From an uncultured delta proteobacterium (GTDB lineage: Bacteria > Myxococcota_A > Polyangia > Polyangiales > Houyiibacteriaceae), in contig CAVOVB010000007.1 of assembly GCA_963699755.1 (NCBI GenBank), forward strand, positions 192,001-256,000: a DNA stretch of 64,000 nt, in the 5' to 3' direction. Below are positions 3,030 through 18,057 of the stretch, piece after piece. Position 1 is the stretch's first letter; the number at the start of each line of letters is the position of its first letter. The position numbers and the translations under genes were made by a program. The notes below the pieces were generated by a model. The model was not told where the DNA came from. It ran no database searches and was given only the letters and a program-made list of their open reading frames with translations.

Positions 3030-4706
3030 TCACCAGGACGGCCGCCAAGTCAGATTCGAGCCGAGGACCAAGACGCTCACGTCTTCGCCGAAGATTCCGT
3101 CGACGCGAACCCCGAGATCGAGGTCGTGCCCGAGTGCGAAATACAAGAGGCCGCCGGCCGAATGCTGCAGCCAACTCGTGGGGGACGCGACATACTGGTT
3201 GATCGACACCCGGTAGTAGGCGGAAATCTCACCGACACGCCGAATGTCTACCCCTGCTCCAAGACGCGCGGCGTAGTCCGATACGAACGAGCGCGCGTAG
3301 GCCGCGACCGAAAGGTCCGCCCAAGCGATATCTGCGATACGCAAGATGCGGGCCTGCAGGTAGCCAGAGAGTTGCTCGAATTCATCGGCAGTCTGGCTGT
3401 GCACGATGTTTGCGCCAGCATGGAGGGCGAAACGTGAAAACATGAAGCTTGCATCCAAGCCACCGAAATATCGCTGGTCATTGCTGTTGAGGCAGACCAA
3501 CTCGTCTCCGCCGCCAGCGGCCGGGTCCGGAACGGTGTTGCACAAGTAACCCAACGGCAGATACGAAGTGAGCCAGAGCGAACGTTCCGGTAACCGCATG
3601 TCGAAGCGGCCGGCGAGCTGAAAGAGGCCGACACGAATCGATGCGTCGAAGCCTGCTGCGCTCACTTCGAAGCGCGGCGCCCGCCAAGGATTGACCTCGT
3701 CGTGCATCGAGAGCTCGAAGTGCCCTCCGATCTGGCCATTTCCGGGAAACACGTCGAACTCCAGATTGAGGCGTCGCTCGTCGATTTCGCCCATGAACGT
3801 CGAAGCGTGTGCGGACAGGCCCACGAAAGGCTGGGCATCGAGCGATTCGTTTTGGTATGCGAGCTCCACCCCAAATCGCGTCGTATCCAGGGTCGGCAGA
3901 TAGTCGAGCGGGTTTGGCACCGTGCCGCCAAAGGCGCCGATCGTGAAGCCCTTCCAAGAAGGGGAGCGCACACGAAGCCCATCGAGCTGCCCGACACCGA
4001 CCGCAACGAAAGGCAGCCTGCCCAGCCCAAGCTGAGGGCTGGTCGACGTGCCGTAGCCGAATTGCAGCTCCCGGACCGCGAGCACTGGCCGGGAGGAGCT
4101 GCCCGGGCGATTTCCGATGTTGCCTCCGAACCAGGACCGCACGGCAATGTCTACGTCGAAGAACACAGGCTGCTCGAAAGGCTCGGCGTGGAGCCTTGCG
4201 CGTAGCGATGCACGGCCGAAGGACTCCCCGTCGCGCAACGCAAGAGTCCCACCTACGTCTGTCGAAAGGGCGAGATCGATTCGCTCCCCATCGGACCAGG
4301 TACCCAGAGGCACGTACTCCGGCGTCTGCCGCGTCGCGGGACGCACCGGCTCTGGCCATTGGCTCTCGTACGCGGTTAGAGGCTTGGGTTTGGTCAGTGA
4401 TGAGCTAACGGTCCGTTTGACCTTGGCCTCTGCCCGGCCGGTCATCCCGACTCGCAGCTCGCGTCCTTTCATCTCGATGACCGCGTGCTTGCCTGTCACC
4501 CCAACGACTCGGTAGCGACGATCACGAAGAACCACGACGGACCCTACTCCGACCCCCGCTGCTTCGCCTGGCGTCAGATAGGCGCGTCCGCCCGCAATGT
4601 CGACGACTTTGACGCTGACTCGGCTTCCAGATGCGGCGTTGGCCGCAGTCGTCGCGGCGAAGAGGGCCGTGCACGCAAGCAGCGCTGCGAACCAAGTCGG
4701 CCTCAT
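3030..4706 (-). CDS. putative outer-membrane beta-barrel (porin-like) protein of the multiheme cluster
   Basis: Signal peptide MRPTWFAALLACTALFAATTAANA; many amphipathic beta-strands; terminal aromatic residue (LTWRPSW); ATGA-coupled to decaheme gene. Confidence 0.7.
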   Translation of the reverse strand: MRPTWFAALLACTALFAATTAANAASGSRVSVKVVDIAGGRAYLTPGEAAGVGVGSVVVLRDRRYRVVGVTGKHAVIEMKGRELRVGMTGRAEAKVKRTVSSSLTKPKPLTAYESQWPEPVRPATRQTPEYVPLGTWSDGERIDLALSTDVGGTLALRDGESFGRASLRARLHAEPFEQPVFFDVDIAVRSWFGGNIGNRPGSSSRPVLAVRELQFGYGTSTSPQLGLGRLPFVAVGVGQLDGLRVRSPSWKGFTIGAFGGTVPNPLDYLPTLDTTRFGVELAYQNESLDAQPFVGLSAHASTFMGEIDERRLNLEFDVFPGNGQIGGHFELSMHDEVNPWRAPRFEVSAAGFDASIRVGLFQLAGRFDMRLPERSLWLTSYLPLGYLCNTVPDPAAGGGDELVCLNSNDQRYFGGLDASFMFSRFALHAGANIVHSQTADEFEQLSGYLQARILRIADIAWADLSVAAYARSFVSDYAARLGAGVDIRRVGEISAYYRVSINQYVASPTSWLQHSAGGLLYFALGHDLDLGVRVDGIFGEDVSVLVLGSNLTWRPSW

Positions 4707-5632
4707 CGTGCGGTCCCTCCTGGGTGGCACCCCAAGCACGAGGCACCACTGCTCGAAACGCGCCGTCCATGCTGCTGCTGGAGCTTGACGGCGTTGTGCG
4801 CATGGCAACCCGTGCAGCGGACCAGCCGAGGCGTTCGCGCTGAGGTGTGGCAGCTATTGCACGGCGCCCCGCGGTGCGGGCCGTGCGAAACCGGAAAATA
4901 TCGGTCGTGATCGGGAGGGACGACCATGCCTCCGATGCCTGCTCTGACGGAGCTCGTCGACGCGGCGGTGAGTGACGTGGGGTCGATGAACGCAGGGCTC
5001 CAGGCGCTCGCAAGATGGCACTGAGAGCAATCTCGCGAAAACGGGTCGGAGGTGGCGGTTCCGCGGTGACTCGGATGGACGCTTGGATCGAGGTACTCGG
5101 CAGCGTGACAGGAGAAGCAGTCGCTTTGAACCGTCGTCCACTGCCGTTCTCCGTTTCGCAGATGGCATTCGGTGCAGTCGGCCAGCGCGTGCATGCCCGT
5201 CAAGGGGAAGCGTGTTCGGCGATGGATCTCGAACGGCTCCATGTCGTTCCAGCGTCTCGAGGAGTGGCAGCTGTCGCATCGACCGCTCAGGCGTTTCTGG
5301 TGTGGATTTTCGTGGCACGCTCCGCACTCCCTCGTAACTCGCCGCTCGCCGCTGTGACACTGATTGCAGGCAGCCGGCTCATGTCTCCCTGTGAGCGGGA
5401 AACCCGTGCGGGAATGGTCGAAGCCTTCGCCTGATTTGCCCCCCATCATCTTCCAGCTCGCCGGCGTGTGGCAGTTGCCGCAATCAAGCCCCTCGGTGAT
5501 CGAGTTGTGGCTGGCAGCCCTGGCTTGGGCCGCGTTCCGTTCGGGGTCTTTGGCGATCGCGAGCCCGGCAATGCCGGCGAGAGCGACGATGCCCAAAACG
5601 ATGAATAGCCTAATCAACAGGGCGCGGTTCAT
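4703..5632 (-). CDS. decaheme cytochrome c
   Basis: 10 CxxCH motifs counted; N-terminal hydrophobic signal; FPLTGxH repeats. Confidence 0.92.
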   Translation of the reverse strand: MNRALLIRLFIVLGIVALAGIAGLAIAKDPERNAAQARAASHNSITEGLDCGNCHTPASWKMMGGKSGEGFDHSRTGFPLTGRHEPAACNQCHSGERRVTRECGACHENPHQKRLSGRCDSCHSSRRWNDMEPFEIHRRTRFPLTGMHALADCTECHLRNGERQWTTVQSDCFSCHAAEYLDPSVHPSHRGTATSDPFSRDCSQCHLASAWSPAFIDPTSLTAASTSSVRAGIGGMVVPPDHDRYFPVSHGPHRGAPCNSCHTSARTPRLVRCTGCHAHNAVKLQQQHGRRVSSSGASCLGCHPGGTAR

Positions 5633-7266
5633 CGCTGCCCCTTTCTGCGCGCGTGCGGGTTGCCATGACAATCGGCGCACTCGCGATACCCGAGCCTGTA
5701 TCTCACCACTTGCACCCCGCTTCGTAGGCGCTCCTTTTGGTGACACCCGACGCACTTGAGCCCGGCGTGAGCGCCTTCGAGCGGATAGTCGGCGAGCTCC
5801 TCGTGGGCGAACGCCTCGATCTCGAAAGCATCCGTTATGTGGCACACCTCACACTCGCGCTTGGGCTCGCTGAGCCGAAACTGTCCGGCGTGAGTGTCCT
5901 GGTGACAACCGGCACAGTCGCGCGGCGCTCCACGGTAGGTCGCCCCCCGTCCGCTGAGCCGGTCCGCTTTCGAGGGGCTATGGCAGCTGTCACAGGCCGC
6001 TTCGGAGTGCGCGCCGGTCAGCGGCCAGGTGCTGTGGTCGATTTTGGGTGAGTCCCAGCCGCGCTCGGAGTGGCAATGCGCGCAGCCCCCATCGCTCATT
6101 TCGCTGGCGAACTGGTCGCCGTGGGGGTTGTCGTGGCAATCGATACAACGCTGCGATTTCAGCTCGAGCCGGTAGTGAGGTCGTTTCCCTTGGTGACAGC
6201 CCGTGCAAGGGACCGACTGATGCTTGCCATCGAGAGGGAACTTGGTCCGGCTGTGCTGCTCGACACCAAACGAAGTCGGCCAGAACCCGTGTTCGTCGTG
6301 GCAGGACTTGCAGTCGGCGCTTCCAAGGCTCCCGCGGTGCACATCTTTGTGGCAGTCCCCGCATTGATCGAACTCGAGACGGCGATATCGGCGCTCCATC
6401 GGCAGCTTGGGCGAATGGCAGCTAGTGCACGCGACGTCTTGATGCCGGCCTTCGAGGGGAAACGCAGTGAGAGGATGCGCGCGAAGCCCGATCCTGGTGG
6501 GCAGCCGCGTCCAGCGAATGCTGGCATGGCAGTTCTCGCATCGATCTCCGAATTTCGCTTCGTGAACCTGCGCATGGCAGGCTACGCACGCCGCGCCCGC
6601 GCTTGGGGCCGAGGTGTTGCCTTTGTCGTGACAGGCCTCGCACTTCGTTTTCGCATGCCCGCCGGCGAGGCTGAGACCAGGATGGTTGCTCCTGACGTTG
6701 GTGACCTGGCTCCAGTCGGTTTCGTTGTGGCACGACGTGCATTCAGCCCCCGCAAATCTGCCCTCGTGGGGATCCTCGTGGCAGGACACACAGTCGGTCT
6801 TCAGCCCGAGAAACGTCGCTTGACCGCGACGGTTGCGGCGATCGTGACAGTCCTCACATCGAACCGAGGCATGAGCCCCCTTGAGCGGCCAGCCCGATAG
6901 GCGATGATCGAAACGCGTCTGCCCACCGCCTGGCCACCGAACGAGCTTCGCATTCCTTCCGAGATGCTCGACGTGGCACTGGCCGCAGTCTTGTCCGCGA
7001 TACTCTCGTCCGTGGAGACCTGCCTGCTGGCGTATCCGTGCCCCCAAGTCGTCGTGGCAAGCCAGACAGGCATCGGTGTCGAGCCGCTGGCCGGTCGAGT
7101 GGCATTCACTGCAATTCGCATCGCCCTCGAGCTCGGCGTGTGCGCTCGTGAGCTTTCCGGGCGATAGGAACTGAGCGCCGGTCGGCCGAGGCACCAGCAC
7201 GCCAGCAATCGCAGCCGCGATCATCCACGCGCCCAAAAGCACCATAGCGGTCGTCCGCCCGCTCAT
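5629..7266 (-). CDS. 20-heme cytochrome c
   Basis: 20 CxxCH motifs counted; signal peptide; repeated triheme unit (W/F)PLxGxH-CxxCH-CxxCH-DxH-CxxCH. Confidence 0.92.
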   Translation of the reverse strand: MSGRTTAMVLLGAWMIAAAIAGVLVPRPTGAQFLSPGKLTSAHAELEGDANCSECHSTGQRLDTDACLACHDDLGARIRQQAGLHGREYRGQDCGQCHVEHLGRNAKLVRWPGGGQTRFDHRLSGWPLKGAHASVRCEDCHDRRNRRGQATFLGLKTDCVSCHEDPHEGRFAGAECTSCHNETDWSQVTNVRSNHPGLSLAGGHAKTKCEACHDKGNTSAPSAGAACVACHAQVHEAKFGDRCENCHASIRWTRLPTRIGLRAHPLTAFPLEGRHQDVACTSCHSPKLPMERRYRRLEFDQCGDCHKDVHRGSLGSADCKSCHDEHGFWPTSFGVEQHSRTKFPLDGKHQSVPCTGCHQGKRPHYRLELKSQRCIDCHDNPHGDQFASEMSDGGCAHCHSERGWDSPKIDHSTWPLTGAHSEAACDSCHSPSKADRLSGRGATYRGAPRDCAGCHQDTHAGQFRLSEPKRECEVCHITDAFEIEAFAHEELADYPLEGAHAGLKCVGCHQKERLRSGVQVVRYRLGYRECADCHGNPHARRKGQR

Positions 7267-8150
7267 TGGGAAAAGATCCATCGATAGCCGTAGATCCAAG
7301 CCACGGCGATGTGTACGGGAACGAGCAAAACGAGGATCAGCGCGAGCAACCGGTGGAAGCCTCGCCAGGACTGAAGCAGCGAGGAGGCTCCGACCGCGAC
7401 AACCTCGCGGGTTGCGTACTTGCGGACCACGCGCTTCGCCTTTCGAAAGCGTCTTCGTTCTTTGCGTCCGAGGACGTCAGCAACTGGGGCATCCTCGATC
7501 ACGAAGCTCACGATGAAGCCTCTTGAACGCGCATCCATCACCCACCTCGGAATGGCGGCGAGCTTGGCGAGCAGCCACTGATGCGCATCGACTTGGGTGA
7601 CCTTGTGGATCGCGAGCGCATGGTACACCCGGGCGCTGCACCCCGGAGCGAGCTCATCCAACGAGGCGAGCGCCTGCTCGAGCCGGGCTCGATCGGGACG
7701 CGGCGTCAATGCATAGAGATAGCGGCCTGCGATCCCGGTCGCCACCACGACGCCTAGACTGACCGCTGTGACCAGCGCGATCGGTGTCCGAAACTGGAAT
7801 GCGGAATGAAAGAGGATGAGGAGTGACCCGATCAGTCCGGTGAAGACGTGTAGGTTGAGCCAGGTGGCCATCGAGCCGAGCGACCAGCGCGCGAGCCTTC
7901 GCCGCGCGAGGTAGAGGAGGTTGGCGAGGATCAAGATCGTTCCGACGATGCCGTACCCGTGTCCGACCAGGCCGCCGGGCCGAAGCGCGTCGTAGTCGCC
8001 GTGCTCCACCCTCGCCTCGAGGTCGGACAGATAGAAGTCTTGACCGAGATCCCAGAGCACGTAGGCAAGAACGGAAATCGCCAACAACACCAGCAAGACG
8101 GCGCTTCGATCCGCGCGGCGCTTCTGCGCAGCTTTGGTTTTCCTCCCCAC
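7263..8150 (-). CDS. integral membrane protein, ferric-reductase/cytochrome b-like
   Basis: Several TM segments; two helices each with H-X13-H (HVFTGLIGSLLILFH, HRLLALILVLLVPVH), consistent with two b-type hemes. Confidence 0.75.
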   Translation of the reverse strand: MGRKTKAAQKRRADRSAVLLVLLAISVLAYVLWDLGQDFYLSDLEARVEHGDYDALRPGGLVGHGYGIVGTILILANLLYLARRRLARWSLGSMATWLNLHVFTGLIGSLLILFHSAFQFRTPIALVTAVSLGVVVATGIAGRYLYALTPRPDRARLEQALASLDELAPGCSARVYHALAIHKVTQVDAHQWLLAKLAAIPRWVMDARSRGFIVSFVIEDAPVADVLGRKERRRFRKAKRVVRKYATREVVAVGASSLLQSWRGFHRLLALILVLLVPVHIAVAWIYGYRWIFSQ

Positions 8151-8245: not shown

Positions 8246-9565
8246 ATGACCACTTGGATTGCACTTGGCTTCTTCGCTGCAGTTGCCCTCGGCTTGAACC
8301 TTTTTTGGAGACGAAACGAGCAGGTGCGCACCGAGACAGGTCGCCAAAAACTCGAGGAGCTGCGAGCCATGGGGGACCTCGTCCCCGCGAGCATTCATCC
8401 TGAGATCGATCCCATCCGCTGCATCGGTTCAGGGGCATGTGTCTATGCCTGCCCGGAGAAGAGCGTCCTCGCGGTGGTCAATGGCAGGGGCGTGCTGACC
8501 AACCCGCTCGGCTGCATCGGACACGGCGCCTGCGCCTCGGCCTGCCCAGTTCAGGCGATCTCGTTGGTGTTTGGCACTGAGAAGCGCGGGCTCGAGCTGC
8601 CCCAGCTGGATCCCGACTTTCAGACCAACCAGCCCGGCATCTACATCGTCGGCGAGCTCGGCGGAATGGGACTCATTCGTAACGCGGTCTCGCAGGGACG
8701 GCAGGCGGCTGACCACATCGTCGCGGGTCATCGCAGAGGAGCAGGCGAATCGCTCGATGCACTGATCGTCGGCGCCGGCCCGGCCGGGACGAGCGCGACG
8801 CTGCGCTTGATGGAAGCCGGGTTGCGGGTGCTCTTGCTCGAACGGGAAGCCTTTGGCGGCACGATTACACACTACCCGCGGGCGAAGGTCGTCATGACCG
8901 GATCGCTCGACTTCCCGATGTACGGGCGTGTGTCCAAGACAAAGATGAGCAAGGAGCAGCTCATGACGCTCTGGGAGGACATCCAGGAGAAGACCGGGCT
9001 GCAGGTCGCTGTGGGAGAGCTCGTCGAGAAGATCGAGCGCGGACCGGGACCGAACGACAGCTGGTTGGTCTCCTCCACCGGCGGTGTGTTCGGAGCGGCA
9101 AACGTCCTCTTGGCCCTCGGCCGTCGCGGCTCTCCGCGTAAGCTCGGGGTGCCCGGCGAGGAACGTTCGAAGGTCGCCTATCGAGTGATCGAGCCCGAGG
9201 TCTTTCGAGAGCAGCACGTATTGGTGGTCGGCGGCGGCAATGCGGCGGTCGAGTCGGCATTTGCCCTACTCGATGGCGGAAACTGCGCGTCGGTGACGAT
9301 CAGCTATCGCAAGAATGCTTTTGCGCGCTGCCGTGAGCCGAACCGCAAGCGCATCGAAGCGGAGGTCCAGGCCGGCCGGCTTACCGCGTTGATGGGCACC
9401 GAGGTCGAGGAGATCTTCGACGATCGAGTCACCCTCCGCAACGGGTCGGGACTGCCGATCTCGATCCAGAACGACGCGGTCGTGGTCCAGGTCGGTGGAA
9501 CGGCGCCGACCGACTTGCTTCAGGGCGTCGGGATCGAGATCGTCACCAAGTACGGAGAAGCCTAG
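8246..9565 (+). CDS. membrane-anchored ferredoxin-domain / NAD(P)-FAD pyridine nucleotide-disulfide-family oxidoreductase
   Basis: N-terminal TM helix; CIGSGACVYACP and CIGHGACASACP; GAGPAG and GGGNAA Rossmann motifs; GRRGSPRKLGVPGE. Confidence 0.88.
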   Translation: MTTWIALGFFAAVALGLNLFWRRNEQVRTETGRQKLEELRAMGDLVPASIHPEIDPIRCIGSGACVYACPEKSVLAVVNGRGVLTNPLGCIGHGACASACPVQAISLVFGTEKRGLELPQLDPDFQTNQPGIYIVGELGGMGLIRNAVSQGRQAADHIVAGHRRGAGESLDALIVGAGPAGTSATLRLMEAGLRVLLLEREAFGGTITHYPRAKVVMTGSLDFPMYGRVSKTKMSKEQLMTLWEDIQEKTGLQVAVGELVEKIERGPGPNDSWLVSSTGGVFGAANVLLALGRRGSPRKLGVPGEERSKVAYRVIEPEVFREQHVLVVGGGNAAVESAFALLDGGNCASVTISYRKNAFARCREPNRKRIEAEVQAGRLTALMGTEVEEIFDDRVTLRNGSGLPISIQNDAVVVQVGGTAPTDLLQGVGIEIVTKYGEA

Positions 9566-10254
9566 TCGCGATTACGGCCGTCGGCATGGCACTCCAAGCA
9601 GAAATTGGGAGATGCCTCTCCACTCGGGTAGCGGCCGACCTCGTTGTGTTTTGGATCCATCCGGGCGCGCGTGTGCTCTCCGTCGTGGCAACCAACGCAA
9701 TCGCTGTTCTCGCCGCCCACCGGCGATCCGAGCGCAGGGTTGTGGCAGGACACGCAGTCGTTCCGGTACGGCGAATGCGCCCCGTTCTGAATGGGAAACG
9801 CGTTCTCGGGATGCGTACCGCCAACCGCTGGCGCCCACGCTTCGGTCGTATGGCAGTTCTCGCAGGTCGTGGGGAAGTCTGAGTGTCCCGGATACGGGCT
9901 GCTGTCATAGTCGTCTTGATGACATCCGACGCACAGGGTGGGGGTGCCCTGGAAGACCGCTGGATTTCCGACGTGGCATGACGCACAGTCGACGTCGGCC
10001 GCCGCATGCGCGCCATTGAGCGGCCACGGATGCATGAACAACCGTGCCGGCTTCCAAGCGTCGCTGCTGTGGCAGGTGCCGCAGGTATCCGGAAAGCCTT
10101 GATGTGGGGGGTTGAGGGCGTGCTGCACATCCTCGGCGTGACAGACGATGCAATCCGCACCGCGCACCTCGACGCGCGCGTGGTCCTGCGTGCCGCCAGT
10201 GCACGCATGGTTGAGCAAGAGCACGCCCAGCACCCCGATCCTGAGAAATCGCAT
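9562..10254 (-). CDS. octaheme cytochrome c, probable lipoprotein
   Basis: 8 CxxCH motifs; signal MRFLRIGVLGVLLLNHA-C (imperfect lipobox). Confidence 0.9.
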   Translation of the reverse strand: MRFLRIGVLGVLLLNHACTGGTQDHARVEVRGADCIVCHAEDVQHALNPPHQGFPDTCGTCHSSDAWKPARLFMHPWPLNGAHAAADVDCASCHVGNPAVFQGTPTLCVGCHQDDYDSSPYPGHSDFPTTCENCHTTEAWAPAVGGTHPENAFPIQNGAHSPYRNDCVSCHNPALGSPVGGENSDCVGCHDGEHTRARMDPKHNEVGRYPSGEASPNFCLECHADGRNRD

Positions 10255-10482
10255 CACCCGTCGGCCACCAATCCGCTCACCCAAAGTTAGCACCTCTGGC
10301 TTAGACTCGGTAGCTGACCGACGAACAGGGGAAGCCCTGTAACACGCTGAAAAAACAGGCTTTGAGGGGTACGGAGCGGGATCTTGTCGACCGACGCAGC
10401 CGAGTGCTTGAAACTGGGCCTCCGATGTGCCTCTGTTCTCTCACCAATCGAGGGCGAACCTTGATTTGAGGGCCCCTTACAT

Positions 10483-10500
10483 TTAACCTGGCGGGGTTAA
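10483..10500. promoter_or_regulatory. palindromic operator candidate TTAACC-N6-GGTTAA
   Basis: Perfect 6-bp inverted repeat in the AT-richer divergent intergenic region, 16 bp before the 29-heme start. Confidence 0.4.
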
Positions 10501-10516
10501 TCACAATGGCATTAGA

Positions 10517-12724
10517 ATGTCACCCATGAGGCTTAGTTCTCGTGGACCGCTTGGGCGCCTCGCGGCTCTCGGGCTAGTGGCCACCTTGTTGATCGGCGTG
10601 GGATGCAGTGGGGCTGCGAGTCCGTCTCACGAACCGGGGAGGATCGTTCAAGCCGAATGCATCACGTGCCATGAAGCAGACCGCAAGGCGGCGATCAATC
10701 CACCGCACGCTTCCCTCCCGAGCACATGCCAGGACTGCCACACGGAACACCAATGGGACCCGGCTGTGTCCACCACCATCCACACGCCGCTTCCGACATC
10801 TTGCGTAACGTGTCACGAAAACCAGCCCCGGCCGCAAACGCTCTTCCATACGCAGGCCGTCGAGACCGAGTGCGTCAACTGCCACCGAAACTATCCGGAT
10901 TGGACGCAGGCCAACTTCCTCCACATGCCCGCGCCTCGCGCCTGCGCAGATTGCCACGCGGATCAGAGGCCCAACACGCCCACGCACCAAACCTCGCAAG
11001 GCCAGGGCGACTGTGCGTCGTGCCACATCATCAACGACTGGGCGATCACCGACCCGGCGGCGCTTCACACCCCGCTGCCAGCGTCTTGCGTGACATGTCA
11101 TGAAAACGATACGCAACCGCAGACGATCTTTCACACCCAAGCCGTGGAGAGCGAGTGTGCGAGCTGTCACACGAACTATCCGGATTGGACGCAAACCGAC
11201 TTCCTTCATTCGCCCGTGCCGAGCACCTGCAACGACTGCCACAGCGACCTCAGACCCACGACGCCCACGCATCAATCGACCGCGGGCCGGGGAGACTGTG
11301 CCGGCTGCCACGTCGTGGACGACTGGGCCATCACCGACCCGGCAGCCATTCACACGCCGCTGCCGGCATCCTGCAAGACGTGTCACCAAGACACTTTGCA
11401 GCCCCAGACAATCTTCCACACCCAGGCCTTCGACACCGAGTGCCGCAGCTGTCACCGAAGCTATCCGGATTGGAAGCCGGCTGATTTCCTCCACACGCCC
11501 GTGCCCAGCACCTGCGATGCTTGCCACAGCGATCTGAGACCCACGACTCCTACGCATCAATCGGCCGCAGGCCTCGGGGACTGTGCCCGCTGCCACGTCG
11601 TGGAAGACTGGGCCGTCACCGACCCGGCCACACTCCATGCGCCGCTTCCGGCAGCGTGCATATCGTGTCACCAGAACGAACCGCGACAGTCGACGATTTT
11701 CCATACCCAGGTCCTCGAGCCCGAATGCGCCGGCTGTCACCGGAGCTATCCGGATTGGACACCGGTTGACTTTCTCCACGCGCCTGTGCCCGACACCTGC
11801 TTGGACTGTCACTCTGATCGAAGACCCGACACGGCCACGCACCAAACCGCGGCGGGCCAGGGCGACTGCGCCTCCTGCCATCTCGTCAGCGACTGGACGA
11901 CGGCCGATCCGGAGGAGCTCCATACGCCGCTTCCAGCATCTTGCATGACATGTCACCAAAACGAGCCTCGGCAACCGACGATCTTCCACACCCAGATCGC
12001 TCAACCCGAGTGCGCGCGCTGTCACCATCAATATCCAGGTTGGACGCCGGCTGACTTCTTGCACGCGCCCATTCCAAACACCTGCAATGCTTGCCACAGC
12101 AACCTGCGGCCCAATACTCCGACGCATCAATCAGCCGCAGGACTCGGGGACTGCGCCAGCTGCCACGTCGCGAACGACTGGACACTGGTCGATCCGACAG
12201 CGCTCCACACACCGCTTCCGGCCGCTTGCATTGCTTGTCACGCCGACGAACCCAGGGCGAACAATCCGCTACACACGCAAACATACGAACCCGAATGTGC
12301 GAGCTGTCACCGCTCGTATCCGGCCTGGACTCCGGCAACGTTCGCCCACACTCCGCCGCCAACGCGCTGCTATGACTGTCACGAATCGCAGCGCCCCATG
12401 ACCCCAACGCACCCCAGCACTGGCGACTGCCTGGGTTGCCACGCGACGTCAGCCTGGCTTCCGGCAACGGGTGGCGCCCATCCCGAAACTGCGTTCCGGA
12501 TCCAATCGGGAGCGCACTCGAGATATCGAAACGATTGTGCCTCCTGCCACAACGTGGCGCTCGGCTCGCCCGTGGGCGGCGAGAATACCGACTGCGTCGG
12601 TTGCCACGATGGCACCCACACGCGGTCCCGCATGGACAGCAAGCACGGGGACGTGCGCAACTATCCGAGCGGCGCCGCGCCTCCGAACTTCTGCCTAGAT
12701 TGTCATTCAGACGGCCGAAACTAG
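10517..12724 (+). CDS. 29-heme cytochrome c lipoprotein with tandem tetraheme repeats
   Basis: 29 CxxCH motifs counted; lipobox-like LLIGVG-C; six 95-aa repeats. Confidence 0.92.
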   Translation: MSPMRLSSRGPLGRLAALGLVATLLIGVGCSGAASPSHEPGRIVQAECITCHEADRKAAINPPHASLPSTCQDCHTEHQWDPAVSTTIHTPLPTSCVTCHENQPRPQTLFHTQAVETECVNCHRNYPDWTQANFLHMPAPRACADCHADQRPNTPTHQTSQGQGDCASCHIINDWAITDPAALHTPLPASCVTCHENDTQPQTIFHTQAVESECASCHTNYPDWTQTDFLHSPVPSTCNDCHSDLRPTTPTHQSTAGRGDCAGCHVVDDWAITDPAAIHTPLPASCKTCHQDTLQPQTIFHTQAFDTECRSCHRSYPDWKPADFLHTPVPSTCDACHSDLRPTTPTHQSAAGLGDCARCHVVEDWAVTDPATLHAPLPAACISCHQNEPRQSTIFHTQVLEPECAGCHRSYPDWTPVDFLHAPVPDTCLDCHSDRRPDTATHQTAAGQGDCASCHLVSDWTTADPEELHTPLPASCMTCHQNEPRQPTIFHTQIAQPECARCHHQYPGWTPADFLHAPIPNTCNACHSNLRPNTPTHQSAAGLGDCASCHVANDWTLVDPTALHTPLPAACIACHADEPRANNPLHTQTYEPECASCHRSYPAWTPATFAHTPPPTRCYDCHESQRPMTPTHPSTGDCLGCHATSAWLPATGGAHPETAFRIQSGAHSRYRNDCASCHNVALGSPVGGENTDCVGCHDGTHTRSRMDSKHGDVRNYPSGAAPPNFCLDCHSDGRN
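10781..12460 (+). repeat. intragenic tandem repeat, 285-bp period, ~6 diverged copies
   Basis: H(T/A)PLP codons recur at 10781, 11066, 11351, 11636, 11921, 12206. Confidence 0.92.
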
Positions 12725-12745
12725 GGGCCGCACGAAGTCACGCGC

Positions 12746-12946
12746 TCAGAATGCTTTGCCTTCGCTCATCCCGAAACGCTTCGCGATCGTCGCCATGGGG
12801 CAAAAGCCCGTAAAGGAGGCCTGAAACATGTTCAGCCCGACAAAGGCCGGAAGGATGAGCCAGGCGATATTGTGACTGTAGGCGAGGATCACGCCTGCGG
12901 TGACCATGATGCCTGCAACTCGAAAGACCAATTTGTCGATGTTCAT
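12746..12946 (-). CDS. DUF2892 (YgaP-like) small membrane protein
   Basis: 66 aa, two TM helices, VGLNMFQASFTGFCP signature. Confidence 0.85.
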   Translation of the reverse strand: MNIDKLVFRVAGIMVTAGVILAYSHNIAWLILPAFVGLNMFQASFTGFCPMATIAKRFGMSEGKAF

Positions 12947-12972: not shown

Positions 12973-14592
12973 TCAGAAGGAGTAGCGAAGCCTCGCGTAG
13001 ACGTTCGTGTTCTCTTGGAGCTGTCCGAAGAAGCTGTAGTCGTCGCGACCGAACATGAGGTTCGCGCCGATGACGATCGCCAGGGGCTCGACGATCTTGT
13101 AGGTGATGCGCGGCCGGATGTAGGTGTCGAGCTGGTCCGGCGAGAAGAAGACGAAGAGCGAGAGCTCGAGCTTGTCCATGACCAGGAGCTGGTTGAGCCG
13201 TAGCGTGATGAGGTGCCGGAACTCGTGCTGCTCGTATTGAGGCCAGAACGAGCTCGCGATCAGCTCGTCGTACTTGAGCGTGTACTCGAGGTAGTATTGC
13301 AGGCCCATTTGGAACTTCGGAAGGAGCTCACGCTCATAGCCCACCAGTCCCCGGAACTGGGAGTTCGGTATCGCGGGGCTCGTCCCCGCCCGATCCTTGA
13401 ATGAGTCGTAGAACGCACCTTCGACGTTGAAGAGGCCGCCAAAGAGCGGGGTGCGCAGGCTCGCGCCGTAGACGGCCAGGCGCGCGTAGGTGAGCCCCAA
13501 AATGGTGTTCGGATCCGCCGGGTCGGTGAGCGCAAGCGCATTGGGCTGCATCCAGTAACCCACATAGCCATAGGCCGCGAGCTCGACGGCGCCTGCCGTG
13601 CCGTAGAGGCGGCCGTGGATCGTGCCGTTTCGCAGTCGCTGCTCGGGGAAGAACGGATCGATCGGCGTGAGCGGAGACCGATCGCCGACGACCTCTGCGA
13701 CCAGGGGATTGAAGAACGAGAGACGCTGCCCGTTGATGAAGCGATCCGGCTCGAAGATCGGGGTCCAGATCAAGTCCAGTCCGACTTTGTTCATCATGAA
13801 CGTGGTCTGCACCGAATTCGAGGGCGCCTTGAGGTATTCGTCCGCGCGACCGATGAAGAAGGAGTTGAAGTCCTTCGGAAAGAGGTCGTTCAAGAACAAG
13901 AAGTCGCCCGTGCCCCAGGTGAGCACCTGACGGCCGAACCGCATGCTGAACCAGCTTCCACCACGTATGAAGATCGACGCATCTCGAATGTCGAACCAGA
14001 TCCGACGGTCGACGGCGTCCGCGAAGACATCGCCCCGAAAGCGTGCGCTCACGATCTCATGGGTGGCGTCGAGGTTCAGACGAAAGCGCGCCTCGTTTGC
14101 GACGAATTCATTGGCGCTGGCGCTGCTTGGGACGACGCGCGGCGCGATGAGGCCTTCGACGAAGCCGCCGATCTGAAAGTCCCAGGCCTTGGCGCCAGAG
14201 CCTCCTTCTCCTCCACCCTCTTCCTCTTCCCAGTCGTCGAACTCGCCCCAGTCCTCGTCGCCGCCAGAATCGTCGGCCGGCTCGACGTCGCCCGCGAGCT
14301 CCTCGGGCGGATCCGAAGCTTCTGCGGCGTTCAGCGGGCCTTCTGCCTCAGCCTCGAGCGCCTCTTCCGCTCTCGGATCAGGAGACCCCTCGGGCTCAGA
14401 CCGAGTAGATGGACCTGCGTCGGAGCCGCCCGCGCCCTCCTCTTCCTTGGGCGCGGCCATCTCTTGCCCGACTTGACCGAGGGCCCCAGAGGCGAAGACG
14501 AGGGCCGTGAACACGAGCGCAGCGATCGCCAAGCACCTGAGCGAGCCGCCACCCTCGTGGCACCGCTCGGTAGTACAGATCGCCGGTTTCAT
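12973..14592 (-). CDS. outer-membrane beta-barrel protein with acidic N-terminal extension
   Basis: Signal-like hydrophobic stretch; GRQVLTWG motif; C-terminal YARLRYSF beta-signal; start uncertain. Confidence 0.75.
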   Translation of the reverse strand: MKPAICTTERCHEGGGSLRCLAIAALVFTALVFASGALGQVGQEMAAPKEEEGAGGSDAGPSTRSEPEGSPDPRAEEALEAEAEGPLNAAEASDPPEELAGDVEPADDSGGDEDWGEFDDWEEEEGGGEGGSGAKAWDFQIGGFVEGLIAPRVVPSSASANEFVANEARFRLNLDATHEIVSARFRGDVFADAVDRRIWFDIRDASIFIRGGSWFSMRFGRQVLTWGTGDFLFLNDLFPKDFNSFFIGRADEYLKAPSNSVQTTFMMNKVGLDLIWTPIFEPDRFINGQRLSFFNPLVAEVVGDRSPLTPIDPFFPEQRLRNGTIHGRLYGTAGAVELAAYGYVGYWMQPNALALTDPADPNTILGLTYARLAVYGASLRTPLFGGLFNVEGAFYDSFKDRAGTSPAIPNSQFRGLVGYERELLPKFQMGLQYYLEYTLKYDELIASSFWPQYEQHEFRHLITLRLNQLLVMDKLELSLFVFFSPDQLDTYIRPRITYKIVEPLAIVIGANLMFGRDDYSFFGQLQENTNVYARLRYSF

Positions 14593-14626
14593 GGATTTGC
14601 TCCGTGCTCGTCTGCGCGCGCTCCGC

Positions 14627-15436
14627 TCAGCGAAGCCACTTGACGGGCGGATTTCGAAGAGAGCCCTCGACGAAGATGTCATCGGGGATCCCGAGGTCGT
14701 AGCTCACGTTGCTGACGTCGCTCAGCGTGTACCCACCCAACTCGAGATCACTGACCTTGAGCCTGGTGATGGTCGGATGCCCTTGTATGGTGTCCACCTT
14801 GGCGGTTTCGATGCGCCGGTACACCTTGCCCTGCGCGTTTACGTACTCGATCTGGCTGGGCAAGAAAGTCTTCTTGTTGATCCGTAGTGTGTAGTGCACG
14901 AACTCGACGCCCTTGCTGCTCTTGGGCGTGCTCTTCACCACATACTCCGTGTCGGTCGTTTCGATGAGCTCGTGCTTGTCCTCGTCGGGATGTCGCCCGG
15001 AGATATCTTCGTAAAAAAAGTTCGTTCCGACGAAGCTCGTGCGCTCGTCGCTAGCTGCGATTCGCTTCACGAGATCGAGACCTGGAAGGTACAGCCAGCG
15101 ATCGTCGTCCTTGTTAGCATGCTTCTTCACAAGGAACGCCGTGTTGCGAACGTCGGCGGGCTGGTCGAAGACGACTAGGTAGTTCTGGTCGCCTCCGTCC
15201 TTCAAGTCGCGCCTTAGAACCGCGAATTGCCGTCGCTGGGAGCGCCCCTTGCCGTCGACGATCTTCATCCGGATGAGTGCTCGTCCATCTTTTGCCGCGT
15301 AGTACTGGGCGTTGTTCGTGCGATTTACGATTTCACTCGCGTCCTTCAGGTCGCCTGCCTCCGCGGACATCGCGGGGGTCGAGAGAAGAATCGTGGCAGC
15401 GACCGCCGCCAACCAGGTCTTGCTGAGGTCTTTCAT
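14627..15436 (-). CDS. outer membrane lipoprotein-sorting (LolA-like) protein
   Basis: Signal peptide; PADVRNTAFL, DDRWLYLPGL, VKRIA, SFVGTNFFYED motifs. Confidence 0.85.
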   Translation of the reverse strand: MKDLSKTWLAAVAATILLSTPAMSAEAGDLKDASEIVNRTNNAQYYAAKDGRALIRMKIVDGKGRSQRRQFAVLRRDLKDGGDQNYLVVFDQPADVRNTAFLVKKHANKDDDRWLYLPGLDLVKRIAASDERTSFVGTNFFYEDISGRHPDEDKHELIETTDTEYVVKSTPKSSKGVEFVHYTLRINKKTFLPSQIEYVNAQGKVYRRIETAKVDTIQGHPTITRLKVSDLELGGYTLSDVSNVSYDLGIPDDIFVEGSLRNPPVKWLR

Positions 15437-18057
15437 GCTGTTTGCTCCTTGTTGGTCGCAAGGGACGCCGCGGCGTCGTCCTCGCTCGTTGCTACCGTCT
15501 CCGTTTTTGGGGAGAGCCGGTTTTGGATTTGCATCATGATCGAGGGCAGTAGCACCACCGTGACGACGCTCGAGACGGCCATGATGGCTGCCATCAGGAA
15601 GCCCACGGTGTTGTAGGGAACCAGCGGCGCTCCGAGCAACGGAAGGAACCCAATCGCGATGACGATCGCGTTGCGCGTGATCGCCCTACCCGGCTCCTGG
15701 AACATGAGTGACATCGTTTTGCTCCAGTCACCGGTCTCCTTTTGAATTGACCTAGCGCGCTCGAGGAAATGAATCGCGAAGTCGACCGAGAGGCCAAGCG
15801 TCAAGGACGAGAGGACGGCGACCGGCATGTCGTAGTCCTTGCCCACCAAACCGATCAGTCCGTAGGTGAAGACGATCGTAATCGTGAGTGGGACCATCGC
15901 CAGCACGCCGTACAACGCCGACCGGAACAGGATCACCATCATCAGGAACACGATGACGAACGCGCCCATCAAGCTCTCGAGCATTCCGCCGACCATTTCG
16001 TCCTGCCACACCGTGTTGAGGAACGTGAGGCCGGCCCATTGGACGCGAAGGCCCTCAGGCGGAGGGTTGCCGGCCAAGAAGGTGTCGAGGTCGGTCTTGA
16101 CCGACATCATGTCCTGATTGTCACCGCTCTTGAGCTGCACCCAGATGGCGCTTTCACGGTAGTCGGGGCTCACCAAGTGCCAGAGATCATTCGGACGGTG
16201 AGACGACTGGAACTGGAGGAGCGTCTGCGCGACGCCCTCGGTGGAGCCTGGGATCCGGTAGTCCTCGTCATCTCCACTGAGGAGCTCCCGGTAGACAGTC
16301 TTCACGACATCGGCGATCGAGCTCGTCTTGCCAACGAGGGGCAGCGCGTCCGCTTCCTTCTGGAGCCGTTCGATGTAAGCCAGGTGCTCCGGGTTCTGGA
16401 AGGTCTTGCTTGCCGTCTGCGCCTCTTCGAGCGCGGTCTGCACCGCCTGCCACCGCTCCGAGTCTTCGCCGCTGGTGTCAAAGACCAGATCGGAGGTCGC
16501 TTCGATCAAGGAGTCGGAGACGTTCGTCGCCCCTTCCTCGCTCGCTGCTTCCGCATCGGCTTTGAGAGCGTCCCAGCGAGCGCGCATGTGGCCGCTTGCA
16601 CCCTGGAGGGCTTTGTCACCTGCCGCGATGATCTCGGCGCTTGCATCGGTATCCTGCTTCATGACGAGGAAGGCGGTATAGGTGCCGGCGAGCTCTTGGT
16701 TGAGCACCCTGTCGGCCACGCGGATCTTGTGAGAAGGCTTGAACCAACGGACCGGGTTGTCGTTGATATTTATCTGCGTGATGCCGTATCCGCTGATCGC
16801 GATCGCGACGACCGTCACGACGAGAATCGGCTTGGCGAAACGAAGGCTCTTGGCGCCCACGGCTTCCACGGCGCGACCCAGCAATCCACCCTCGCTTGCG
16901 TCGCGCTTGGCCGAGAGCAGCGCCGTCAAGCGTTTCTCGGGAAGCGCAGCGATGTAGGCAGGGACGAACAAGATCGTCAAGACGAAGGCGACGGCGATGC
17001 CGAAGGCGACAAACGCACCGAAGACACGGACAGGCGGAATCGGGGTCAGCATGAGCGATAGGAAACCCGCCGCCGACGTGAGAGATGTGTACAGCATCGG
17101 CGCGAACAGGTGCCCGACGACCTCCTTGATCGCGACCTTGCGATCGCCGGTCTTCGGGTAGATATCCACGAATTCCGATAGCAGATGGACGGAGTCGACG
17201 ACCGCTATGGGCATCAGGAAGATCGGAATCATCGAGCTCATGATATGCACGGTGAAGCCACTCGCGATCAGGGCTCCCATCGTGATGGTCACTGTGGTCA
17301 TGGCGACGATCATCGGCGACAAGACCAAGGCGAAGGAACGGAAGAACCACCACATCAGCAGAAGGATCACCAGAGCAGCAAGGGGCGCGGAAACCGCCAT
17401 CTGCTTGAACATCTCGACGCCAAAGGTGTCCTCGGCTACCGGAAGGCCGGTGATGTAGAACTCATCGCTGTTGTTGCCGAAGCCGGCGATGACCGCTTCG
17501 ATCTCTTGGGAGATGCGGTGGCTCTGATCCTTGCTCTCGATCGGGACGTAGAGCGCGACACTCTTGCCATCTTCGGAGACCACGGTGCCGCGAAGCATGG
17601 GCAGCCGAAGGGCGGCCTCCTTGATCGCAAGAGCCTCCTCCGGAGTCTTGGGTGCTTCCTCCATCAACCATTCGAAGCGAATCGTCCCAGGCCCAGCCTG
17701 CTCGATGTTGTCCATGGTCGAGGGCCCAAGAACGTCCCGTGCAATGACGCCGTCGATCGACTTCAGCCGCTCGTTGAGCTCGTGAATGCGGGCAAGCGAC
17801 TCGGGGTTGAAGACCCCCTCCGGCTCGGCCTCGTTCACGACGCCCACGACGATCAGGTCGTGAAGGGCGAACTCCCCCTTGGTCTCGTTGTGAAAGACGC
17901 GCGCTGCGTCGTGCTCCGCGAGCATGTTCTCCGGATCGGTATCGACTTGGATCGAGGGAATGGCCGCACCGAGGCCGATCGTGAGCACGGCCAGGCCGAC
18001 GAAGATCAGGCGCGTGTGTTGAATTGGGAAATCGAGAATCTTTCGCTTCATGGACAT
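15433..18057 (-). CDS. RND/MMPL family transporter
   Basis: Two halves each with one TM, a large loop and ~5 TMs; IAVVDSVH and GLSVDFAIH motifs; YTSLTSAAGF. Confidence 0.9.
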   Translation of the reverse strand: MSMKRKILDFPIQHTRLIFVGLAVLTIGLGAAIPSIQVDTDPENMLAEHDAARVFHNETKGEFALHDLIVVGVVNEAEPEGVFNPESLARIHELNERLKSIDGVIARDVLGPSTMDNIEQAGPGTIRFEWLMEEAPKTPEEALAIKEAALRLPMLRGTVVSEDGKSVALYVPIESKDQSHRISQEIEAVIAGFGNNSDEFYITGLPVAEDTFGVEMFKQMAVSAPLAALVILLLMWWFFRSFALVLSPMIVAMTTVTITMGALIASGFTVHIMSSMIPIFLMPIAVVDSVHLLSEFVDIYPKTGDRKVAIKEVVGHLFAPMLYTSLTSAAGFLSLMLTPIPPVRVFGAFVAFGIAVAFVLTILFVPAYIAALPEKRLTALLSAKRDASEGGLLGRAVEAVGAKSLRFAKPILVVTVVAIAISGYGITQININDNPVRWFKPSHKIRVADRVLNQELAGTYTAFLVMKQDTDASAEIIAAGDKALQGASGHMRARWDALKADAEAASEEGATNVSDSLIEATSDLVFDTSGEDSERWQAVQTALEEAQTASKTFQNPEHLAYIERLQKEADALPLVGKTSSIADVVKTVYRELLSGDDEDYRIPGSTEGVAQTLLQFQSSHRPNDLWHLVSPDYRESAIWVQLKSGDNQDMMSVKTDLDTFLAGNPPPEGLRVQWAGLTFLNTVWQDEMVGGMLESLMGAFVIVFLMMVILFRSALYGVLAMVPLTITIVFTYGLIGLVGKDYDMPVAVLSSLTLGLSVDFAIHFLERARSIQKETGDWSKTMSLMFQEPGRAITRNAIVIAIGFLPLLGAPLVPYNTVGFLMAAIMAVSSVVTVVLLPSIMMQIQNRLSPKTETVATSEDDAAASLATNKEQTA

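What the first reader, a model, noticed from the sequence alone, without database searches (positions are those of the whole stretch)
10517..12724. 29-heme lipoprotein built from six exact-period 95-aa tetraheme repeats
Seen: 285-bp periodicity. Each unit has four CxxCH and four additional conserved His (HTPLP, FHTQ, FLH, PTHQ), giving one distal ligand per heme and about one heme per 24 residues. The backbone is Pro/Thr-rich with little room for secondary structure. Inference: a single-chain, length-tunable bis-His heme wire tethered by a lipid anchor. I do not recognise this repeat from characterised cytochromes.
Basis: partly seen in the sequence, partly recalled or inferred. Interest (0 to 1): 0.85.

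Follow-up and report, generated by a model that had tools for sequence, protein, structure and literature searches.

The report
Modular 29-heme lipoprotein wire, PCC3-like
This real gene of an uncultured sediment myxobacterium encodes a protein with 29 heme-binding motifs in six repeated blocks, predicted to be lipid-anchored and likely an optional extension wire for a neighbouring porin-cytochrome electron conduit of an already predicted but untested kind.

Summary
Observation confirmed: 735-aa ORF, 29 CxxCH, 285-bp period; five full 95-aa units plus a sixth that drifts near its end. Not an artefact: nine relatives carry the identical heme spacing and short-read contigs match. All eight His per unit are invariant in 67 of 67 units. 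The true module is a 47/48-aa diheme, shared with a wide family of up to 131 hemes. The gene sits beside a PCC3-like cluster (diheme-b-type membrane protein, 20-heme, 10-heme, putative barrel, FeS-flavoprotein) and is optional: 11 of 55 genus genomes versus 26 for the barrel. New here: the same promoter palindrome and terminal caps frame either this insert (17, 21, 25, 29 hemes) or a different triheme insert (11, 14), but six units dominate. Folds were uninformative (pLDDT 37, 62; no structural match), so 'wire' stays inferred. Repeat-built giant cytochromes were described for PCC3 (He 2017) and GSU1996 is solved. The scan noted this family before on other DNA (e1-3104756, e1-4879128). New variant of a known kind; interest 0.42.

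The parts
10483..10500 (.). 18-bp palindrome TTAACC-N6-GGTTAA, likely regulator site, 25 bp upstream of the conserved ATG
   Evidence: present with 0-2 mismatches before 11 of 11 orthologs aligned and before triheme-insert paralogs; only exact copy in G000
10517..10606 (+). Signal peptide and lipobox Cys30 (probable start ATG at 10526; -10-like TAGAAT just upstream, no obvious Shine-Dalgarno)
   Evidence: lipidation predicted, not tested
10607..10780 (+). N-cap, hemes 1-2; shared with 8-, 11- and 14-heme paralogs
10781..12205 (+). Five exact 95-aa tetraheme units (each two dihemes of 47 and 48 aa), hemes 3-22
12206..12466 (+). Sixth, diverged unit (42-48% to the others), hemes 23-26
12467..12724 (+). 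C-cap, hemes 27-29, strongly conserved; shared with 8-, 11- and 14-heme paralogs
   Evidence: 66-87% identical (last four hemes region) to 6 paralogs, 78-91% to orthologs
9562..10293 (-). 8-heme lipoprotein paralog (same caps, one triheme module), divergently transcribed
8246..9565 (+). Membrane-anchored 2x[4Fe-4S] + FAD/NAD(P) oxidoreductase
   Evidence: Pfam Pyr_redox_3 1.5e-32, Fer4; TM 2-20
7263..8150 (-). PCC3/PCC4-type inner membrane protein, predicted diheme cytochrome b
   Evidence: 5 hydrophobic segments, two WX3HX13H, TGIAG; both motifs in 116 of 120 homologs
5629..7299 (-). 20-heme cytochrome of triheme modules, predicted periplasmic
   Evidence: 30-34% identity over about 540 aa to six 21-heme proteins
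4703..5632 (-). 10-heme cytochrome
3030..4706 (-). Putative outer-membrane beta-barrel (no Pfam/NCBIfam family)
   Evidence: 16 amphipathic strands vs 6.9+/-2.4 shuffled, C-terminal Trp

Best explanation
The gene encodes a single chain with 29 c-type heme motifs and a spare His for each, predicted to be a lipid-anchored, all-bis-His heme chain that likely serves as an optional outer extension wire of the neighbouring PCC3-like porin-cytochrome conduit. Shown: the ORF, the 29 motifs, 30 conserved non-motif His, the lipobox, the conserved neighbourhood, the shared caps and promoter palindrome, and whole-unit length variation (17, 21, 25, 29 hemes). Inferred: each His 7-9 residues before a CxxCH ligates a heme iron; dihemes stack in file to about 25-30 nm (scaling the ~100 A quoted for decaheme MtrA); electrons run NAD(P)H <-> FAD/[4Fe-4S] protein <-> diheme-b membrane protein <-> 20-heme <-> 10-heme in the barrel <-> lipoprotein cytochromes, the N-cap lying next to the membrane anchor and the conserved C-cap forming the far tip that meets an external acceptor or partner. 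Direction and acceptor are untested; export of reducing power to insoluble acceptors in sediment is the most likely use.
For: One His 7-10 residues before 27 of 29 CxxCH and Trp after every second heme; His invariant in 67 of 67 units; Met not conserved. 25 aa per heme, inside the 22-39 range that He 2017 gives for PCC3 cytochromes. Synteny with IMP, 20-heme, 10-heme and FeS-flavoprotein in L001, L002, L003, L006, L007, L009, L061. 10 of 11 genomes with the gene also hold the barrel gene. In 6 of 7 fetched loci from other Myxococcota families, cytochromes of the same diheme grammar (15-31 hemes, spacing mostly 23) lie directly behind an IMP homolog and a 21-heme cytochrome. Cytochrome c assembly and secretin genes are in G000. 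The pLDDT-62 model of the 17-heme ortholog shows only short helices repeating with the unit and no globular scaffold.
Against: No confident model and no fold match, so elongation is not shown. The gene has its own promoter and is absent from 16 of 26 barrel-carrying genomes; G005 keeps it intact though the barrel was not found there, and in G010 it lies 13 kb from the cluster. The barrel shows no BLAST similarity to the four barrels of the canonical-order loci (E 0.015 or worse). Linker-shuffle scores to PCC3-order cytochromes (z 2.9-6.0) overlap those to triheme-type cytochromes (z 1.2-4.5); the closest kin (z 10-14) are lipoproteins whose gene context I could not see. Surface exposure and expression are untested; PCC3 function itself is untested.
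Confidence: 0.6

Rival explanations
1. Periplasm-facing wire or electron capacitor: anchored in the inner leaflet of the outer membrane (or the inner membrane), it spans or fills the periplasm and stores about 29 electrons, as proposed for GSU1996/GSU2210.
For: A lipobox does not fix the face of the membrane. An estimated 25-30 nm length and the dominance of exactly six units (9 of 9 complete GTDB orthologs, unit position conserved in 68 of 72) would fit a ruler-like constraint. Capacitor role argued for monomeric heme chains in PMC10138318 (passages).
Against: The cluster already has a 20-heme periplasmic-type cytochrome; 3- and 4-unit forms occur in the same slot of intact clusters (L061); diheme-type cytochromes are the variable member in PCC3-order loci.
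Confidence: 0.22
2. Stand-alone surface cytochrome under its own regulator, working with another partner (or as a redox/heme sink) and only historically linked to the conduit.
For: Own palindrome and divergent transcription; intact in G005 without a barrel match and separated by insertions in G010 and L063; G000 has a second multiheme cluster at C1:612995-626197.
Against: 10 of 11 carriers have the barrel (related genomes, not independent); caps are shared with the 8-heme gene, which sits in the cluster in the loci examined.
Confidence: 0.12
3. Not a linear wire: the repeats coil into a compact solenoid, or chains polymerise through their caps into filaments as OmcS/E/Z do.
For: No model excludes it (pTM 0.18 and 0.31); caps are strongly conserved.
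Against: N-terminal lipid anchor and free gain/loss of whole units fit an open-ended chain; no sequence or fold match to filament cytochromes beyond motif level.
Confidence: 0.05
4. Assembly artefact or pseudo-repeat.
For: G000 shows 9% contamination and holds a frameshifted second copy.
Against: Longest exact match between units is 20 nt; same architecture in 9 other genomes at 70-83% identity; short-read contigs of two studies match the array with no joint.
Confidence: 0.01

Closest known systems
PCC3 'extracellular' multiheme cytochrome (He et al. 2017, PMC5566968; Gallionellaceae survey PMC10734462)
   Same: Very many hemes (PCC3 median 34, up to 85), 22-39 aa per heme, internal repeats, variable heme number (10-35 in Gallionellaceae), proposed linear wire; neighbour IMP of about 300 aa with two WX3HX13H motifs and a roughly 21-heme periplasmic cytochrome.
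   Different: Here the gene is a separately transcribed, optional lipoprotein; caps come from a triheme-module lipoprotein family; backbone is Pro/Thr-rich; the cluster has an extra 10-heme and 8-heme gene and a barrel with no detected similarity to those of canonical-order loci; IMP motif is TGxxG. No named PCC3 sequence could be compared directly.
Geobacter monomeric heme chains GSU1996/GSU0592 (12 hemes; PDB 3OV0) and GSU2210 (27 hemes)
   Same: Single polypeptide of tandem heme modules in a line (PMC10138318 passages); second-best profile hit among solved structures.
   Different: Those are soluble periplasmic triheme c7-type domains with one His-Met heme each; this is a diheme-based lipoprotein with no conserved Met; Foldseek E 2.4, TM about 0.12; NCBIfam nanowire_3heme not hit.
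MtrA/DmsE decaheme (PDB 6R2Q chain A)
   Same: Dense bis-His heme chain with little secondary structure; best sequence and Foldseek hit.
   Different: Match is motif-level: TIGR03508 119.7 bits, cut-off 192.2; Foldseek E 0.62; 29 versus 10 hemes; lipoprotein.
Uncharacterised HxPxP-diheme lipoprotein cytochromes (P0003, P0004, P0127, P0133; P0008 named Bacteriovoracaceae)
   Same: Closest relatives of the repeat: H-x-P-x-P..CxxCH..RP..H..DCxxCH..W; linker-shuffle z 10-14.
   Different: Periods of 43-56 aa, different caps, 30-45% identity; no function known.

Membership tests
PCC3 cluster (He 2017) | Inner membrane protein of about 300 aa, 5 TM, two WX3HX13H, SGXXG on TM4 | tested here: met
   295 aa, 5 hydrophobic segments, both His motifs; motif reads TGIAG (T in 102, S in 7 of 120 homologs)
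PCC3 cluster (He 2017) | Periplasmic multiheme cytochrome, median 21 hemes | tested here: met
   20 hemes, signal peptide, 30-34% identity to six 21-heme proteins of PCC3-order loci; location predicted only
PCC3 cluster (He 2017) | Outer-membrane beta-barrel porin | tested here: inconclusive
   Crude strand count 16 vs 6.9 shuffled and C-terminal Trp, but one negative control also scored high; no family hit; Atlas neighbours with barrel families only at 0.85-0.86; not folded
PCC3 cluster (He 2017) | Repeat-built cytochrome with very many hemes at 22-39 aa per heme | tested here: met
   29 hemes, 25 aa per heme, tandem repeats
PCC3 cluster (He 2017) | Four-gene organisation porin / extracellular MHC / periplasmic MHC / IMP | tested here: not met
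   The 29-heme gene is outside the operon, divergent and optional; a 10-heme gene takes the slot next to the barrel. Hence 'PCC3-like', not filed as a member
PCC3 cluster (He 2017) | Homology to named PCC3 proteins (e.g. Slit_0868, Slit_1447/8) | not testable with these tools
   No named reference sequence was returned; supplementary tables are not held as text
PCC3 cluster (He 2017) | Extracellular location of the variable cytochrome | not testable with these tools
   Lipobox only
GSU1996/GSU2210 c7-type polymers | Triheme c7-type domains, one His-Met heme per domain | tested here: not met
   Diheme/tetraheme period, no conserved Met, TIGR04257 not hit
GSU1996/GSU2210 c7-type polymers | Linear heme array in one chain | tested here: inconclusive
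MtrA/DmsE decaheme family | 10 hemes, TIGR03508 above cut-off, MtrB partner | tested here: not met
   29 hemes; 119.7 vs 192.2 bits; barrel gene hits no NCBIfam or Pfam family
Polymerising cytochrome nanowires (OmcS/OmcE/OmcZ) | Small subunit that polymerises through inter-subunit heme contacts | not tested
   No complex prediction was run; no significant sequence or fold hit; one spare conserved His (30 for 29 hemes) is unexplained

The most novel reading that the evidence does not exclude
The locus is a natural cassette system of interchangeable electron 'extension cords': one promoter palindrome, one lipid-anchored N-cap and one conserved C-terminal tip frame exchangeable inserts, either triheme modules (8, 11, 14 hemes) or a grafted foreign diheme module (17, 21, 25, 29 hemes), giving a graded set of wire lengths on one conduit. 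That would be a module swap between two cytochrome families caught within one genus, and a ready-made series for measuring conduction against length in a single chain.
Probability: 0.3. Interest if true: 0.7.

Novelty: new variant of a known kind. Interest (0 to 1): 0.42.

Why it matters
PCC3-type giant cytochromes are widespread but have no structure and no demonstrated function (passages). This protein is an unusually regular member: fixed caps, an exact 95-aa unit and natural 17/21/29-heme lengths make it easy to dissect (one-, two-, three-unit constructs), to test whether repeats form a conducting chain and how rate scales with length. It also points to extracellular electron transfer in a marine-sediment Polyangiales family (SG8-38 lineage by the name on P0275); the passages I read of a recent Myxococcota survey contain no 'extracellular electron' or 'iron' mention. 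The concept itself (repeat-built single-chain heme wire) is not new.

Full report
Observation. The ORF at 10517-12724(+) encodes 735 aa with 29 CxxCH motifs; 2000 shuffles give at most 4. The period is 95 aa / 285 nt. Five units are exact in length; the sixth stays in register for about 70 residues and ends with a 20-residue spacing. Two hemes precede the repeats (N-cap) and three follow (C-cap). The single free Cys (C30) ends a hydrophobic signal stretch and is kept in the 11 orthologs whose starts I printed. The ATG conserved among relatives is at 10526.

Not an artefact. Units are 51-78% identical in DNA and share at most 20 exact bases in register. Of 11 GTDB loci, 9 hold a complete 29-heme ORF with the identical spacing list at 70-83% identity; the other 2 are cut by contig ends. 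Short-read contigs from two studies lie on the array without joints; one covers 11452-12900 with no difference (one of these runs may be the window's source).

Heme ligation. All 8 His of the unit (4 in motifs, 4 outside) are invariant in 67 of 67 complete units from 15 proteins. Counting the caps there are 30 conserved non-motif His for 29 hemes, and no conserved Met. All-bis-His ligation is therefore the likely state; which His binds which iron is inferred.

The real module is a diheme. The two halves of the unit align (hhalign 94.7%, 45 columns). The shared grammar is a His 6-9 residues before each CxxCH and a Trp after every second heme. A two-unit query found 1239 representatives at E<=0.001; among the 145 newly listed ones the median is 30 hemes and the maximum 131; 121 of 375 stored proteins passed a filter for this grammar (orthologs included). 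With Cys and His fixed and linkers shuffled, the closest relatives are HxPxP-type proteins (P0003, P0004, P0127, P0133; z 10-14); diheme cytochromes of PCC3-order loci score z 2.9-6.0, other diheme proteins 4.3-6.1 except P0124 (0.6), and triheme-type proteins 1.2-4.5. The link to the PCC3-order proteins thus rests on grammar and spacing more than on this test, which does not separate them cleanly. The 95-aa doubling is confined to this genus in what I searched: 11 of 55 genus genomes at E<=1e-20, and only weak 23-34% matches in 16 genomes outside the genus among 301 sampled.

Host and neighbourhood. Relatives are titled Polyangiales/Myxococcales, one of them SG8_38_1; runs holding the stretch are marine, estuarine or sediment. 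Upstream lie an 8-heme lipoprotein gene, a membrane-anchored [4Fe-4S]/FAD oxidoreductase and an operon of IMP, 20-heme, 10-heme and putative barrel. The IMP has five hydrophobic segments and both WX3HX13H motifs that He et al. 2017 define for PCC3/PCC4 (passages; section 15 read whole), with T for S in SGXXG; 116 of 120 homologs keep both motifs. I fetched 7 of the 16 distant Myxococcota hits: in 6 of 7 a diheme-type cytochrome of 15-31 hemes follows an IMP homolog and a 21-heme cytochrome, 6 of 7 have the FeS-flavoprotein and 4 of 7 a barrel candidate in the stretch. This is the organisation He et al. describe. The window's 20-heme protein is 30-34% identical to those 21-heme proteins, but its barrel shows no similarity to theirs. 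The window cluster is therefore PCC3-like, not shown to be PCC3; named PCC3 sequences were not obtainable, and the paper's supplementary tables, which may bear on this, are not held as text.

An optional, exchangeable part. The barrel gene is in 26 of 55 genus genomes, the repeat gene in 11; 10 of the 11 have both (kin are not independent). G005 (91% complete) keeps the gene but the operon is missing at the locus and the barrel was not found. The slot between the 8-heme gene and the downstream operon holds either this gene or an 11/14-heme paralog built of triheme modules (L079, L087, L156), sometimes both (L001, L002). Both kinds share the N-cap (52-62%), the C-cap (66-87%) and an 18-bp palindrome 23-25 bp before the start. 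In a C-cap tree the 17 tetraheme-type rows form one clade (95/89) apart from 6 triheme paralogs.

Length variation. Complete forms: six units in the window, 9 GTDB loci and L063, L065, L066; three units in L061/L062 and 6 of 8 members of the P0002 cluster (two fragments not examined), including P0273 at 79% identity; four units in P0001/P0267; five units in the frameshifted second copy of G000. Unit position is conserved across genomes (68 of 72 units match their own position best), so the six-unit array is old and not being homogenised; short forms nest among six-unit forms with moderate support (84/92) and are likely losses of whole units. 'Tunable' is true in that units can be dropped; six is the norm.

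Structure. Both AlphaFold2 runs were weak (pLDDT 37.1; 62.1 with pTM 0.31). The better model repeats short helices and bridges with the unit and has no long scaffold, but no fold search found a match. The wire is inferred from heme density and analogy; 25-30 nm is my estimate from about 1 nm per heme.

Mechanism. Most likely (0.6) an outer-membrane lipoprotein chain extending a conduit from cytoplasmic NAD(P)H through a diheme-b IMP and 20- and 10-heme cytochromes; rivals are a periplasm-facing wire/capacitor (0.22), a stand-alone surface cytochrome (0.12) and a compact or polymerising form (0.05). No residue known to cause inner-membrane retention follows the lipobox Cys (the E. coli +2 Asp rule is recalled, not from a call, and may not hold here).

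What is known. He 2017 already reports repeat-built cytochromes with up to 85 hemes as presumed wires; Hoover 2023 reports 10-35 hemes and long linear models (passages); PCC3 function is untested and not Fe(II)-induced in ES-1 (passages). GSU1996 is a solved single-chain 12-heme wire and GSU2210 has 27 hemes (passages). Grafting and pruning of heme modules is a known mode of evolution (passages of PMC11492766). Passages of two further papers added nothing specific. Earlier notes of this scan cover the second G000 copy and an ortholog and several PCC3-type wires; they are not independent support.

Verdict. Real, well conserved, a new variant of a predicted kind. What is new is the cap-and-insert architecture, the graded length series and the shared palindrome. 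Interest 0.42.

Noticed in passing
window 10483-10500; G000 C3:702514: Conserved palindrome TTAACC-N6-GGTTAA before these cytochrome genes; a one-mismatch copy precedes an ORF that looks like a sigma factor (my reading of its first 50 residues). Regulator unknown.
   Followed up: partly
window 10514-10528: A TAnnAT-like hexamer lies 6-8 bases before the conserved ATG with no Shine-Dalgarno-like run: possibly a leaderless transcript.
   Followed up: no
P0122 (3592 aa), P0124 (3274 aa): Relatives with 131 and 129 CxxCH motifs, more than the 113 given as the record in PMC11492766 (passage). Assembly not checked.
   Followed up: no
G000 C1:1796337-1798283: Second, frameshifted five-unit copy within a duplicate of the whole cluster, closest to L003/L011; probably a contaminating relative.
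   Followed up: partly
G000 C1:612995-626197: Another multiheme cluster (3, 13, 23, 9, 7, 8, 10 hemes) with different repeats.
   Followed up: no
L067:2842-3714: Identical to the window gene for 799 nt, then diverges and stops at 10 hemes: truncation or mis-assembly.
   Followed up: partly
L065:3518-7117 (-): 24-heme, about 1200-aa ORF with a different long repeat next to the 29-heme gene.
   Followed up: no
L089:3458-11085: IMP, FeS-flavoprotein, 20-heme and an 80-heme ORF in one distant locus.
   Followed up: no
window 12973-18057 (-): MMPL/RND transporter, LolA-like protein and putative barrel always downstream of the cytochrome slot in long loci; a link to the cytochromes was not tested.
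   Followed up: partly
P0032: 39-heme lipoprotein whose first half uses HxP/RP-type dihemes and second half GK/HIPT-type dihemes: both module styles in one chain.
   Followed up: partly
L011:6651-9128: The IMP-to-barrel operon and half of the FeS-flavoprotein gene are missing while the 8- and 29-heme genes are intact.
   Followed up: partly
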